Source of the DNA: an uncultured Gemmatimonadales bacterium
GTDB taxonomy: Bacteria; Gemmatimonadota; Gemmatimonadetes; Gemmatimonadales; GWC2-71-9
Assembly: GCA_963828735.1 (NCBI GenBank)
Contig: CAWHFW010000005.1
Span: 1,568,001 to 1,632,000 of the forward strand
Length of the DNA: 64,000 nucleotides
Direction: 5' to 3'
Shown here: positions 4,652 to 30,284 of the stretch, piece by piece
Layout: each line of letters opens with the position of its first letter
How positions within the stretch are numbered: the first letter of the stretch is position 1
The notes under the pieces: model-generated
Database searches by the model: none
Told to the model about the DNA's origin: nothing
Seen by the model: the letters and a program-made list of their open reading frames with translations, nothing else
Program-made: the position numbers and the translations under genes

Positions 4652-4694
4652 AAAAAAGACGAAGGGGGCATGCCCGTTCGGCATGCCCCCTTCG
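4652..4694 (-). terminator. Intrinsic terminator, hairpin family copy 1
   Basis: Perfect 15-bp stem CGAAGGGGGCATGCC/GGCATGCCCCCTTCG (4660-4694), A6 at 4652-4657 (U-tract on -), between convergent genes. Confidence 0.85.
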
Positions 4695-4714
4695 CGTTGT
4701 ACGGCCCGGGCGAG

Positions 4715-5695
4715 CTACGGGGTGACGTTCATCTGCAGCGTCACGAGGGAACAGCCGATGGCCGTGTTGCATGCGACGACCTCGACGCCGGGACCCGTCA
4801 TCTCCCCGATCAGGTCGCCATTCTCCAGCCCGCTCGTGTAGTTGAGCGCCGGCTGCCCGAAGTACACGGTCCAGACGTTGGCCGGGAATGCGTTGTCGGT
4901 GCCGACGAGAATGCCCGCGCCGGTCGTCGTGTTGCTGCCACCATCGTAGATGAGCTGCGCCACCGGTGAACCGTTCGAGTAAAAGTTCATGACGCGGTTG
5001 CCGGTACCGTCGTTGGCCGTGAACAGCTGCGCCTGGGGCGCGAAGCTGAGCGAAAGCGACGTAGTGGTCGGACCGGTGCGCGCGCACTTGGTGTGAAACG
5101 GATGCGTGTCCTGGCCGCCCGGATTGATCCAGAGTCCCGGCTCCCCGGTCGCGGAGCTCTCGCAGGTGCCCTTGCCGTCGTTGCCCGGGGTGCCGCCGGT
5201 CCCGTAGTCCAGACAGTTCGGGTTGTTCGGGCCGAAGACGTTCCCGTCGGGATCGGTCCAGAAGCCCTTGGGCCCGCAGGTACCGACGCCGTAGAGGCCG
5301 GCCCCCGAGGTCTTGAAGACGAGCGCCGTGCTGCTGCCCGTCGTTCCGGCGGTGCCGCTGCCCGAGGTGTCGTACGCCGCCGGATCAACCGGCTCGATCG
5401 TCGGTGGCGTGCTGTCCCCCGGCGAAGTCCACGTCCCGTTGTTCACGGGATCGCCGGCGCCGGTCGTGTCGGATGTGAAGGTGGTATCGCCCGGGTTGGT
5501 CGAGGTGGTGTCGCCGGGATTGGTGGTCGTGGTGTCGCCGCCGCTCGTGCCGGGGAGGCCGCTGTCGCGCGGACCGCCGGGAACGGGGTTGTCGCGGGTG
5601 CCCGAGCCTGAAGGGGCCGTGAGGTTGTCGCTGTTGGAACAGGCCGTGATGGCCAGGACCGCCACGAGCCCGGCGGCGAGACGCATGCGGAGCAT
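4715..5695 (-). CDS. Uncharacterised secreted lipoprotein with G/T/D-rich linker and Cys-paired repeats
   Basis: SD AAGGAGA before ATG 5695; lipobox ITAC; GDTT repeats; six further Cys. Confidence 0.8.
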   Translation of the reverse strand: MLRMRLAAGLVAVLAITACSNSDNLTAPSGSGTRDNPVPGGPRDSGLPGTSGGDTTTTNPGDTTSTNPGDTTFTSDTTGAGDPVNNGTWTSPGDSTPPTIEPVDPAAYDTSGSGTAGTTGSSTALVFKTSGAGLYGVGTCGPKGFWTDPDGNVFGPNNPNCLDYGTGGTPGNDGKGTCESSATGEPGLWINPGGQDTHPFHTKCARTGPTTTSLSLSFAPQAQLFTANDGTGNRVMNFYSNGSPVAQLIYDGGSNTTTGAGILVGTDNAFPANVWTVYFGQPALNYTSGLENGDLIGEMTGPGVEVVACNTAIGCSLVTLQMNVTP

Positions 5696-5748
5696 GTGAT
5701 TCTCCTTCGACTTCACGAGGGTGACCCGGCACAGGTTGCCGGCATCGC

Positions 5749-5828
5749 CCCTTCGACAGCCAGGCTGTCTCAAAGAGACCCTTGGCTTTGCGGACCGGCC
5801 TCGCGGCCGGGGTGCCCTAGTCGAAGGG
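5749..5828 (-). ncRNA. c-di-GMP-I (GEMM-I)-fold riboswitch aptamer, U92 variant
   Basis: Minus strand CCCUUCG-ACUAGG-GCACC-CCGGCC-GCGA-GGCCGG-UCCGC-AAAGCCA-AGGGUCUC-UUU-GAGACAGCC-UGGCU-G-U-CGAAGGG: P1, GNRA-capped P2, CGCAAAGCC core and P3, with junction and P2 spacing matching the Vc2 aptamer. Confidence 0.85.
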
Positions 5829-5857
5829 TACGGACACAGGACTTCGGCACGATCTAA

Positions 5858-5873
5858 AGCAACCGCGGTGCCA
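5858..5873 (-). promoter_or_regulatory. Sigma-54 (-24/-12) promoter
   Basis: Minus strand TGGCAC-CGCGG-TTGCT, exact match to TGGCAC-N5-TTGCW; predicted +1 near 5847, just before the aptamer; AT-rich tract 5894-5917 upstream. Confidence 0.85.
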
Positions 5874-29694: not shown

Positions 29695-29854
29695 CGGACG
29701 CGCAACACCGCAGGTGGCGGGATCGGACCGTCATCCCAAGCGCAGGGGAGGGGCTTCTCCCCTGCGATTCGATCCTGCCCCCACCGACGACGTCAGGTCG
29801 TCCGATCCCCCTCCCGCCTTCTCCGCCCCTTTCCGAGCGTTATATTTCGCGCGC

Positions 29855-30223
29855 TGGCCGAGCGTGATGGTCGCGAACGCCTTCGGGCGTCTCGAGGAAA
29901 GTCCGAGCTCCAACGGGTAGACTGCCAGGTAACGCCTGGGCGCCGAAAGGCGACGGACAGGGCCACAGAAAACAGACCGCCCATCGGGCAACCGGTGGGT
30001 AAGGGTGAAACGGTGGGGTAAGAGCCCACCGCGCCACCGGCAACGGCGGCGGCACGGTAACCCCCAGTCGGAGCAAGGCCAAATAAGCGGCGAGGTGTGA
30101 CCCACACCGTGCTGGACCAGCCGCGGGTAGGCTGCTCGAGGTGGCCGGCGACGGCCATCCCAGACAGATGACCATCCCAGGCGCGCGAGCGCCGGGAACA
30201 GAACTCGGCTTACGGCTCGACCA
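29855..30223 (+). ncRNA. rnpB: RNase P RNA (type A)
   Basis: GAGGAAAGTCCGAGCTC, GCCACAGAAAACAGACCGCC, GGGTGAAACGGTGGGGTAAGAGCCCACC, GGAGCAAGGCCAAA, ACAGAACTCGGCTTA; P1 TGGCCGAGC/GCTCGACCA; TATATT -10 at 29841. Confidence 0.97.
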
Positions 30224-30284
30224 GTGGCGGCCCTCCAGACCTGGTTCGGAGGGCCGTCGAGCTTCCGACCCGACGAGGCCCTAC

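What the first reader, a model, noticed from the sequence alone, without database searches (positions are those of the whole stretch)
5749..5828. c-di-GMP-I-fold riboswitch with natural U at the ligand-pairing C92 position
Seen: the minus strand aligns without gaps to the Vc2 GEMM-I aptamer through the junctions and P2. P1 is CCCUUCG/CGAAGGG, J1/2 ACUAGG, P2 has a GCGA tetraloop, C44 and A47 (5789) are kept, and the P3 base is AGCCA/UGGCU. Position 20 is G (5816) but position 92 is U (5756). Established: C92 Watson-Crick pairs with one guanine of c-di-GMP; natural G20A variants in Geobacter sense 3',3'-cGAMP; engineered G20A/C92U shifts preference towards c-di-AMP. Inference: a G20/U92 aptamer could read an A-containing dinucleotide (cGAMP in the opposite register) or another ligand, a possible new specificity class. 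Caveat: U92 and G91 can also pair with A15 and C16, extending P1 to 9 bp and possibly closing the pocket.
Basis: partly seen in the sequence, partly recalled or inferred. Interest (0 to 1): 0.9.

Follow-up and report, generated by a model that had tools for sequence, protein, structure and literature searches.

The report
GEMM-I riboswitch with conserved U92
A real cyclic-dinucleotide riboswitch ahead of a lipoprotein gene in a soil Gemmatimonadales bacterium carries U instead of the usual C at one ligand-reading base; relatives keep this change, so it probably retunes the switch, though a change of ligand is not excluded.

Summary
Rfam's c-di-GMP-I model hits window 5826-5752 (-) at 52.5 bits (cut-off 35). 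The G20 column is G (5816), A47 is A (5789), and the C92 column is U (5756).

U92 is neither an error nor a singleton. All 14 related leaders from two families of one order keep it, and so does an independent DNA contig. In 92-neutral samples U92 is rare: 4 of 71 genome aptamers (all this lineage) and 1 weak hit of 126 readable metagenome aptamers.

The unit reads: sigma-54-like promoter, aptamer, Shine-Dalgarno-overlapping alternative pairings, a monocistronic lipoprotein gene, terminator. Control is therefore translational. The direction is probably ON with ligand, but this is not settled.

The ligand cannot be computed. Five other genomes with the variant hold only Asp- or Asn-type GGDEF cyclases and no SMODS cyclase. 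I therefore favour c-di-GMP read through a G-U pair, at an affinity lowered further by A15-U92/C16-G91 closure of P1. A flipped-register 3',3'-cGAMP sensor remains possible at about 0.2.

This is a new pocket variant (G20/A47/U92) of a known fold. Earlier unchecked notes of this scan report U92 variants on other DNA.

The parts
5859..5873 (-). sigma-54-type promoter-like site TGGCAC-N5-TTGC, about 30 nt upstream of P1
   Evidence: It is the only exact match in the 64-kb window, against 0.03 expected. Its core letters are invariant in 7 of 7 same-genus leaders. The genome has one Sigma54_DBD gene. The consensus motif is recalled, not taken from a call.
5749..5829 (-). GEMM-I-fold aptamer (P1-P2-P3), pocket genotype G20/A47/U92
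   Evidence: RF01051 scores 52.5 bits against a gathering score of 35. My model R1 scores it at 92.5 bits. It is almost invariant in 14 leaders while the flanks diverge.
5822..5828 (-). P1 5' strand CCCUUCG; with A15 and C16 (5821-5820) it can also pair with the Shine-Dalgarno segment
5816..5821 (-). J1/2 ACUAGG: A15 at 5821, C16 at 5820, G20 at 5816
   Evidence: Alignment to the model; A18-G19-G20 invariant in 14 of 14 leaders.
5790..5815 (-). P2 with GNRA tetraloop GCGA (5804-5801) and C44 (5792)
   Evidence: all 8 P2 pairs form in 14 of 14 leaders.
5789..5789 (-). A47, the adenine that intercalates between the two ligand bases in Vc2
   Evidence: invariant. The role comes from passages of PMC3764141.
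5758..5787 (-). P3 with the bulged AG (5766-5765; the G is the G83 equivalent)
5756..5757 (-). J3/1: G91 (5757) and U92 (5756). U replaces the C that Watson-Crick pairs with G-beta of c-di-GMP
   Evidence: T in 14 of 14 leaders and in 5 of 5 hits of the 92-neutral pattern. Unchanged in the X5 contig.
5749..5755 (-). P1 3' strand CGAAGGG; its G run can instead pair with 5723-5716
   Evidence: One compensatory G-C to A-U change between the two families.
5726..5742 (-). Small GC hairpin CCGGCA/UGCCGG in the expression platform
   Evidence: Predicted in the 10 of 10 own-genus-type leaders folded. The stem is kept with changed loops.
5716..5723 (-). CACCCUCG, the competitor of the P1 5' strand for the P1 3' strand
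   Evidence: Minimum-free-energy folds. In the second family the matching segment is CCUUUUACGAU, which fits its own P1 3' strand GUCGAAAAGG.
5702..5711 (-). GUCGAAGGAG: the Shine-Dalgarno sequence inside a near-copy of the P1 3' strand (GUCGAAGG shared)
   Evidence: Invariant in the 11 own-genus-type leaders. Paired with CCCUUCGAC in the minimum-free-energy fold of 8 of 10 such leaders.
4715..5695 (-). Lipoprotein gene (326 aa, signal peptide plus lipobox ...LAITAC), no Pfam family
   Evidence: Orthologues are 67-75% identical in 7 of 8 complete same-genus genes; the eighth (G031) matches only over its N-terminal 160 residues at 43%.
4659..4695 (-). Intrinsic terminator (16-bp stem plus U run) just after the lipoprotein stop, so the gene is monocistronic

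Best explanation
This is a working GEMM-I-fold cyclic-dinucleotide riboswitch in the leader of a monocistronic lipoprotein gene of a Gemmatimonadales bacterium. It is transcribed from a sigma-54-type promoter and acts on translation.

Its pocket keeps G20 and A47 but has U at position 92. This state is fixed in a small lineage of aptamers (G20/A47/U92) that spans two families and at least two or three different lipoprotein genes.

Most likely it still senses c-di-GMP. G-alpha would be read by G20 as usual, and G-beta by a G-U pair with U92. In the free RNA, A15-U92 and C16-G91 can extend P1 from 7 to 9 bp and occupy the G-beta site. The ligand would then have to displace this lid.

Together these two features would lower the affinity, so the gene would respond only to high c-di-GMP. 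Forming P1 takes the strand CCCUUCGAC away from the Shine-Dalgarno copy GUCGAAGGAG, so ligand probably turns translation on.

What is shown: the fold match, the pocket letters, their conservation, the alternative pairings, and the cyclase content of the genomes. What is inferred: the ligand, the lowered affinity, the lid, and the ON direction.
For: Fold and pocket.

Conservation of U92:
- 14 of 14 leaders.
- 5 of 5 hits of a pattern with N at position 92 among 401 genomes of the order.
- A second U92 copy 1.1 kb downstream in G244.
- The base is unchanged in an independent DNA contig.

Purifying selection on the whole aptamer: it is nearly invariant, while the leaders, hairpin loops and coding sequences differ. 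The lipoproteins downstream in the two families are not detectably homologous.

Ligand availability:
- Of 34 GGDEF hits in five other carrier genomes, 32 were readable: 29 Asp, 3 Asn, 0 Ser/Thr.
- No SMODS cyclase in those genomes or in the own genome.
- G053 and G244 have Asp-type GGDEFs only.

Precedent: Vc2 C92U is weakened but still recovers when a diguanylate cyclase is over-expressed (bioRxiv 10.1101/617340, passages).

Lid: 9-bp P1 is 4.3 to 4.5 kcal/mol more stable than 7-bp P1 in 8 of 8 leaders computed.

Expression platform:
- No terminator-like site in the leader on the minus strand.
- The minimum-free-energy fold pairs the P1 5' strand with the Shine-Dalgarno segment in 8 of 10 own-genus-type leaders.
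- It pairs the P1 3' strand with a downstream competitor in 3 of 3 leaders of the second family.
- One compensatory change supports that competitor helix.
Against: - No binding data exist for this RNA.
- A U at the Watson-Crick-reading position is what turns a guanine sensor into an adenine sensor in purine riboswitches (PMC11352751, passage). By the same logic U92 would favour an A.
- The own genome holds a Ser-type (Hypr-like) GGDEF with a GGDEF motif, and four A20 aptamers. cGAMP may therefore exist there.
- A20 aptamers also occur in G025, G031 and G173, which have no Ser/Thr GGDEF. Absence of known synthases is therefore a weak guide in this clade.
- The direction of control is not settled. 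With the top of P1 forced, the computed unpaired probability of GGAG rises in 9 of 11 own-genus-type leaders but falls in 3 of 3 leaders of the second family.
- In 2 of 10 own-genus-type leaders the 9-bp P1 form is itself the minimum-free-energy fold. The switch could therefore be leaky or ligand-independent.
- Covariation inside the aptamer is almost nil (observed no better than shuffles), because the sequences are so alike.
Confidence: 0.55

Rival explanations
1. The G20/U92 pocket reads an A-containing cyclic dinucleotide, most simply 3',3'-cGAMP bound in the register opposite to GEMM-Ib. G would sit at the alpha site on G20, and A at the beta site would Watson-Crick pair with U92. The lineage would then be a second, independent route to cGAMP sensing.
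For: - Base-pairing logic: C92 pairs with G-beta, and in GEMM-Ib only position 20 is changed (PMC6140456).
- The double mutant G20A/C92U binds c-di-AMP (PMC7288161).
- C-to-U retargeting from guanine to adenine is known in purine riboswitches (PMC11352751).
- U92 is conserved across two families.
- The own genome has one Ser-type GGDEF with a GGDEF motif, the Hypr signature described in PMC6456294, and four A20/C92 aptamers.
Against: - In five other carrier genomes, 0 of 32 readable GGDEF domains (34 hits) have Ser or Thr at the specificity residue, and none has SMODS.
- The own Ser-type protein has no close orthologue in 60 relatives at E <= 1e-30.
- The two genomes of the second family also lack A20 aptamers and Asn-type GGDEFs. 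No sign of a second guanine/adenine signal is seen where the variant lives.
Confidence: 0.2
2. The pocket is closed. A15-U92 and C16-G91 make a 9-bp P1 that no longer admits a ligand. The leader is then a ligand-independent structure (constitutive, or responding to temperature or a protein), a riboswitch fossil kept for its helices.
For: - CCCUUCGAC/GUCGAAGGG is perfectly complementary.
- The two extra pairs add about -4.4 kcal/mol.
- In L018 and L167 the 9-bp P1 form is the minimum-free-energy fold.
- U92 also pairs with an A in the competitor helix of the second family.
Against: - Letters whose only known roles are ligand contact or tertiary docking are invariant in 14 of 14 leaders across two families, while neighbouring leader sequence changes. 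These letters are G20, A47-A49, C44, the bulged G, and the GNRA loop.
- The second G244 copy has G at position 16, so the 16-91 pair is not kept there.
- A at 15 and C or U at 16 are equally common in ordinary C92 aptamers. They were therefore not selected to pair with 92 and 91.
Confidence: 0.13
3. The aptamer binds some other, not yet considered ligand, for example a linear dinucleotide such as pGpG or pApG, or c-di-AMP.
For: - The genome has one DAC domain gene.
- High-affinity GEMM-I sensors respond weakly to pGpG (PMC5041473, passage).
- Rfam already lists two pocket variants of unknown ligand in the same clan, RF03167 and RF03168.
Against: G20 is kept. It reads the Hoogsteen edge of a guanine (PMC6140456), which argues against c-di-AMP. 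Nothing in the gene context points to another ligand.
Confidence: 0.08

Closest known systems
c-di-GMP-I (GEMM-I) riboswitch, Rfam RF01051; type example Vibrio cholerae Vc2
   Same: - Same three-helix fold by covariance model (52.5 bits).
- G20, A47-A49, C44 and the bulged G, and a GNRA tetraloop on P2.
- Sits in a 5' leader in the sense orientation.
   Different: - Position 92 is U, not the C that pairs with G-beta.
- In my 92-neutral metagenome sample, C stands there in 124 of 126 readable aptamers.
- P1 can extend by two pairs over the G-beta site.
Engineered Vc2 C92U and G20A/C92U mutants (PDB 3MUR, 3MUT, 3MUV as named in PMC9049102 and PMC7288161)
   Same: The same single change at the same pocket position. 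C92U still answers c-di-GMP, more weakly (bioRxiv 10.1101/617340).
   Different: - Those are laboratory mutants of a picomolar aptamer. This one is a natural, conserved state in another sequence background.
- Here A15 and C16 are able to pair with U92 and G91.
- I could not read the primary paper (Smith 2010), so I give no Kd for C92U.
c-AMP-GMP (GEMM-Ib) riboswitches of Geobacter
   Same: Same fold with one pocket base changed. This is the precedent that a single pocket change retargets GEMM-I (PMC6140456, PMC6456294).
   Different: There the change is G20A with C92 kept. Here G20 is kept and 92 is changed.
Rfam RF03168 c-di-GMP-I-UAU candidate variant (same clan, CL00126)
   Same: Its consensus also reads G-U-C at positions 91-93, so a natural U92 is already on record in a curated family.
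   Different: - That family has U at position 20, whereas this RNA has G.
- The best clan match of this RNA is RF01051, not RF03168.
- That the three letters in the family name stand for positions 20, 47 and 92 is my reading of the two consensus lines plus recall of Weinberg et al. 2017, which I could not read.
Guanine to adenine riboswitches (C74U)
   Same: A C-to-U change at the ligand's Watson-Crick partner (PMC11352751, passage).
   Different: Different fold. There the change is proven to switch ligand; here that is untested.

Membership tests
GEMM-I fold / Rfam clan CL00126 (c-di-GMP-I and variants) | Covariance-model score above the curated cut-off | tested here: met
   RF01051 scores 52.5 bits against 35, over the full model length. 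In the whole genome: E 3.7e-9.
GEMM-I fold / Rfam clan CL00126 | P1-P2-P3 junction with a GNRA tetraloop on P2, and the C44/bulged-G contact letters | tested here: met
   GCGA loop at 5804-5801, C at 5792, AG bulge at 5766-5765. All are kept in 14 of 14 leaders. Docking itself cannot be tested here.
c-di-GMP-I riboswitch in the strict sense (c-di-GMP pocket) | G20 reading G-alpha and A47 intercalating | tested here: met
   G at 5816 and A at 5789.
c-di-GMP-I riboswitch in the strict sense (c-di-GMP pocket) | C92 Watson-Crick pairing with G-beta | tested here: not met
   U at 5756, conserved.
c-di-GMP-I riboswitch in the strict sense (c-di-GMP pocket) | Selective binding of c-di-GMP | not testable with these tools
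   Needs in-line probing or ITC.
c-AMP-GMP (GEMM-Ib) riboswitch | A at position 20 | tested here: not met
   G at 5816.
Rfam RF03168 c-di-GMP-I-UAU | U at 20 together with U at 92; score over 65.9 bits | tested here: not met
   Position 20 is G. RF01051 is the best match of the clan. The score against RF03168 itself is not shown by the tool.
Translational riboswitch | Aptamer strand able to pair alternatively with the ribosome-binding site; no terminator in the leader | tested here: met
   The direction of control is inconclusive.

The most novel reading that the evidence does not exclude
G20/A47/U92 aptamers are a distinct natural specificity class of the GEMM-I fold. They would read a guanine at the alpha site and an adenine at the beta site, that is 3',3'-cGAMP in the register opposite to GEMM-Ib, or a related G/A dinucleotide made by an unrecognised cyclase of Gemmatimonadales. 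The Asn-type Fe-S GGDEF seen in the own genus is one candidate.

A second novel element could hold whatever the ligand is. A cis lid, A15-U92/C16-G91, would mimic the bound base and set the threshold.
Probability: 0.2. Interest if true: 0.8.

Novelty: new variant of a known kind. Interest (0 to 1): 0.5.

Why it matters
Position 92 is one of only two bases that read the ligand's bases in GEMM-I. The one natural change at the other base (G20A) uncovered cGAMP signalling.

A natural U92 state held fixed across two bacterial families has two possible meanings. It may show how riboswitches tune their threshold by weakening one contact and adding a self-pairing lid. Or it may mark a second sensor type and a signalling molecule not yet known in Gemmatimonadota. 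This is a common but little-studied soil phylum whose genomes, as seen here, carry many GEMM-I switches ahead of lipoprotein genes.

The RNA is short (81 nt) and the test is simple. I found no paper on natural G20/U92 aptamers in the searchable library. The key subscription papers were not held, and they may bear on this.

Tried and rejected
- **Sequencing error or singleton:** rejected.
- **Chance match:** rejected (E 2e-7 in the window).
- **Transcription termination as the mechanism:** no terminator-like site on the minus strand of the leader.
- **One orthologous locus only:** rejected.
  - The downstream lipoproteins of the two families are not detectably homologous (E 1.4).
  - G244 has two copies.
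  - The closest C92 aptamers of the genus (L022, L023) precede yet another lipoprotein with no match to P0001.
- **Co-occurrence with the Ser-type GGDEF:** the own protein has no match at E <= 1e-30 in 7 of 7 other carriers of that draw.
- **Function of the lipoprotein:** no Pfam family. The protein atlas gave only scores of 0.76 or less, below its own lead threshold.
- **Covariation inside the aptamer:** uninformative, since the observed value is no better than shuffles.
- **Shine-Dalgarno accessibility by partition function:** equivocal.
- **Papers:**
  - Not held: Weinberg 2017, Kellenberger 2015 and Smith 2010.
  - PMC5888326, PMC8835794, PMC5041473, PMC9481103 and PMC4759541 were searched for passages on position 92 and say nothing about natural U92.
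- **Rows set aside:**
  - G031 L358 (J3/1 'CT', and its P1 does not pair).
  - G053 L344 (35 bits, the G21-C46 pair is lost).
  - L223 and L271 of the metagenome sample are weak hits whose column 92 may be misaligned.

Full report
**What is there**

Scanning the window against Rfam gives two matches over their cut-offs. One is c-di-GMP-I (RF01051) at 5826-5752 on the minus strand: 52.5 bits against a gathering score of 35, E 2.1e-7, full model length.

- P1 5828-5822 with 5755-5749.
- J1/2 ACUAGG, with G20 at 5816.
- P2 with a GCGA tetraloop.
- C44 at 5792 and A47 at 5789.
- P3 with the bulged AG.
- J3/1 reading G-U (5757, 5756), where the model consensus reads g-C.

**Is U92 real and kept?**

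Six other genomes of the same genus hold the same leader at 76-86% identity, and all read G-T-CGAAGG.

A pattern for this aptamer type with N at position 92 was run over 401 genomes of the order (own genome included). It hit 5 genomes in two genera of two families, and all 5 have T.

With loci from a public genome scan, the set grows to 14 leaders, all with U92. One genome (G244) has a second G20/U92 aptamer 1.1 kb downstream, ahead of another lipoprotein gene. G053 has a decayed copy of that one.

In public runs, an independent DNA contig (X5, 5400-5786, one other letter at 5670) keeps the base. So does a 596-nt contig from RNA libraries X15/X16, which is about 97% alike and covers 5400-5816. 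X15 and X16 give identical figures and may be one data set. X7 does not cover the place. The RNA-library contig spans the coding start, the leader and most of the aptamer. That is a weak hint of co-transcription, no more.

**How unusual is it?**

I built a covariance model (R1) from 20 aptamers of this clade and used it to align two samples drawn with patterns that do not include position 92.

- **Genome scan.** R1 matched 71 of them, and U stands at 92 in 4. All 4 are titled Gemmatimonadales and all are of this lineage. L074 is probably the same contig as L018.
- **Metagenome scan.** Position 92 is C in 124, U in 1 (L223, 39 bits, J3/1 'CT'), A in 1 (L271, 26 bits), and a gap in 4.

So U92 is rare overall but fixed in this lineage.

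Earlier notes of this scan report U92 aptamers in several other genomes, and one calls the variant widespread. These are unchecked AI notes. My samples support 'recurrent but rare' rather than 'common'.

Rfam's own candidate family RF03168 (c-di-GMP-I-UAU) also reads G-U-C at 91-93. A natural U92 is therefore on record, but there it comes with U at 20.

**Surroundings**

- Upstream lies the only exact TGGCAC-N5-TTGC in the window (5873-5859, minus strand; 0.03 expected). Its core is invariant in the genus, and the genome has one sigma-54 gene.
- Downstream is a 326-aa lipoprotein gene (4715-5695) with no Pfam family.
- A strong terminator follows at 4695-4659.
- The next genes are convergent, so the unit is monocistronic.
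- Same-genus orthologues of the protein are 67-75% identical. The protein behind the same aptamer in the second family is not detectably related.
- The organism is placed in Gemmatimonadales by the titles of the matching public records.

**Expression platform**

There is no terminator-like site in the leader. The P1 3' strand with G91 and U92 (GUCGAAGGG) and the Shine-Dalgarno segment (GUCGAAGGAG, 5711-5702) share eight letters. Both fit the P1 5' strand plus A15 and C16 (CCCUUCGAC).

Minimum-free-energy folds give this picture:
- In 8 of 10 own-genus-type leaders, that strand pairs with the Shine-Dalgarno segment, and the G run of the P1 3' strand pairs with CACCCUCG (5723-5716).
- In 2 of 10 (L018, L167) the 9-bp P1 form wins.
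- In 3 of 3 leaders of the second family, the P1 3' strand GUCGAAAAGG pairs with a downstream CCUUUUACGAU.

One column pair of this competitor helix changes G-C to A-U between the families. That counts as a single event.

With constraints instead of mutations, the two extra pairs A15-U92 and C16-G91 are worth 4.3-4.5 kcal/mol. The Shine-Dalgarno-sequestered fold lies 0 to 8.4 kcal/mol below the 9-bp P1 form, in 8 of 8 leaders computed before the script stopped.

I read this as a translational switch that ligand turns on. A partition-function check is equivocal, however. Shine-Dalgarno accessibility rises in 9 of 11 own-genus-type leaders but falls in 3 of 3 of the second family when the top of P1 is forced.

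**Which ligand?**

This cannot be computed, so I looked at what the cells can make.

The own genome has:
- six GGDEF domains: four with the canonical Asp at the base-reading residue, one with Asn, one with Ser plus a GGDEF motif;
- one DAC gene;
- no SMODS cyclase.

The Ser-plus-GGDEF combination is the Hypr signature described in PMC6456294.

It also holds four aptamers with A at 20 and C at 92 (L001, L004, L006, L010). The rest are three or four G20/C92 aptamers, one C20, one U20, and a sub-threshold A20/U92 (L011).

That would fit a second signal. But the Ser-type protein has no close orthologue in 60 relatives. In five other carriers of the U92 aptamer, the 34 GGDEF hits give 29 Asp, 3 Asn, 0 Ser/Thr and 2 unreadable fragments, and there is no SMODS.

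The two genomes of the second family have Asp-type GGDEFs only, and no A20 aptamers. The one cyclic dinucleotide with a guanine that all carriers can plausibly make is c-di-GMP.

Engineered C92U Vc2 keeps a weakened c-di-GMP response (bioRxiv 10.1101/617340). The double mutant G20A/C92U binds c-di-GMP at 4.9 uM against 0.011 nM for wild type, as quoted in PMC9049102.

I therefore favour c-di-GMP at reduced affinity (0.55). The alternatives are a flipped-register cGAMP sensor (0.2), a closed, ligand-independent pocket (0.13), and another ligand (0.08).

Against the closed-pocket idea: every letter known only for ligand contact or docking is invariant across two families while the rest of the leader drifts. 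The 16-91 pair is not kept in the second G244 copy. A15 with C or U at 16 is just as common in ordinary C92 aptamers.

**Comparison and verdict**

By fold this is a member of the GEMM-I clan. By pocket it fails one defining feature of c-di-GMP-I (C92). It also fails the defining features of GEMM-Ib (A20) and RF03168 (U20).

It is best called a new pocket variant, G20/A47/U92, of a known kind. It works like a c-di-GMP-I riboswitch until shown otherwise.

I found no description of natural G20/U92 aptamers in the searchable library. The papers most likely to mention them were not held: Smith 2010, Kellenberger 2013 and 2015, Nelson 2015, Weinberg 2017 and their supplements. What I say of those papers beyond the cited passages is recalled.

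Interest is moderate. The variant is real, conserved and cheap to test. The most exciting reading lacks support from the cyclase content of the carrier genomes.

Noticed in passing
window 5859-5873 (-): Exact sigma-54-type promoter motif TGGCACCGCGGTTGC about 30 nt upstream of the aptamer, conserved in the genus. A riboswitch behind an enhancer-dependent promoter would give two-layer control of the lipoprotein gene.
   Followed up: partly
G000:C5:2312863-2314716 (L293), outside the window: A membrane-anchored GGDEF protein with Ser at the base-reading residue and a GGDEF motif (the Hypr signature). It is unique to this genome among 60 relatives at E <= 1e-30. The genome also has four GEMM-I aptamers with A at position 20 (L001, L004, L006, L010). 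This hints at possible cGAMP signalling in a Gemmatimonadales.
   Followed up: partly
G000:C5:1083620-1085338 (L294) and orthologues L321, L322, L328: A GGDEF protein with N-terminal Fe-S/hydrogenase-like domains and Asn (GHEAGN) at the base-reading residue. It is present in 4 of 4 own-genus genomes examined, which also hold A20 aptamers. It is absent from the 2 genomes of the second family, which hold none. The sample is tiny and the genomes are kin, so this is a lead only.
   Followed up: partly
G000:C5:1048203-1056704 (L005, L006, L008, L009, L012): Five GEMM-I aptamers within about 8.5 kb, with long P3 insertions and mixed pocket letters (G20 and A20).
   Followed up: no
L011:1498-1618 (-) = G000:C5:574601-574714: A sub-threshold GEMM-like aptamer (30.6 bits on RF01051; its best clan match is RF03168 at 30.5 bits). 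It has A at 20 and G-U-C at 91-93, the letters of the engineered c-di-AMP-binding double mutant. Its P1 is unclear.
   Followed up: partly
L364 (G244:C24:10700-13400): Two G20/U92 aptamers 1.1 kb apart, each ahead of its own lipoprotein gene. The second has J1/2 AGUCGG. The matching copy in G053 (L365) has lost the G21-C46 pair.
   Followed up: partly
window 29854-30228 (+): Bacterial RNase P RNA class A, 279 bits. Ordinary.
   Followed up: no
L022, L023, L024 (same-genus genomes): Ordinary C92 GEMM-I aptamers of this genus also sit ahead of lipoprotein genes with lipoboxes. Lipoproteins seem to be a main riboswitch regulon here.
   Followed up: partly
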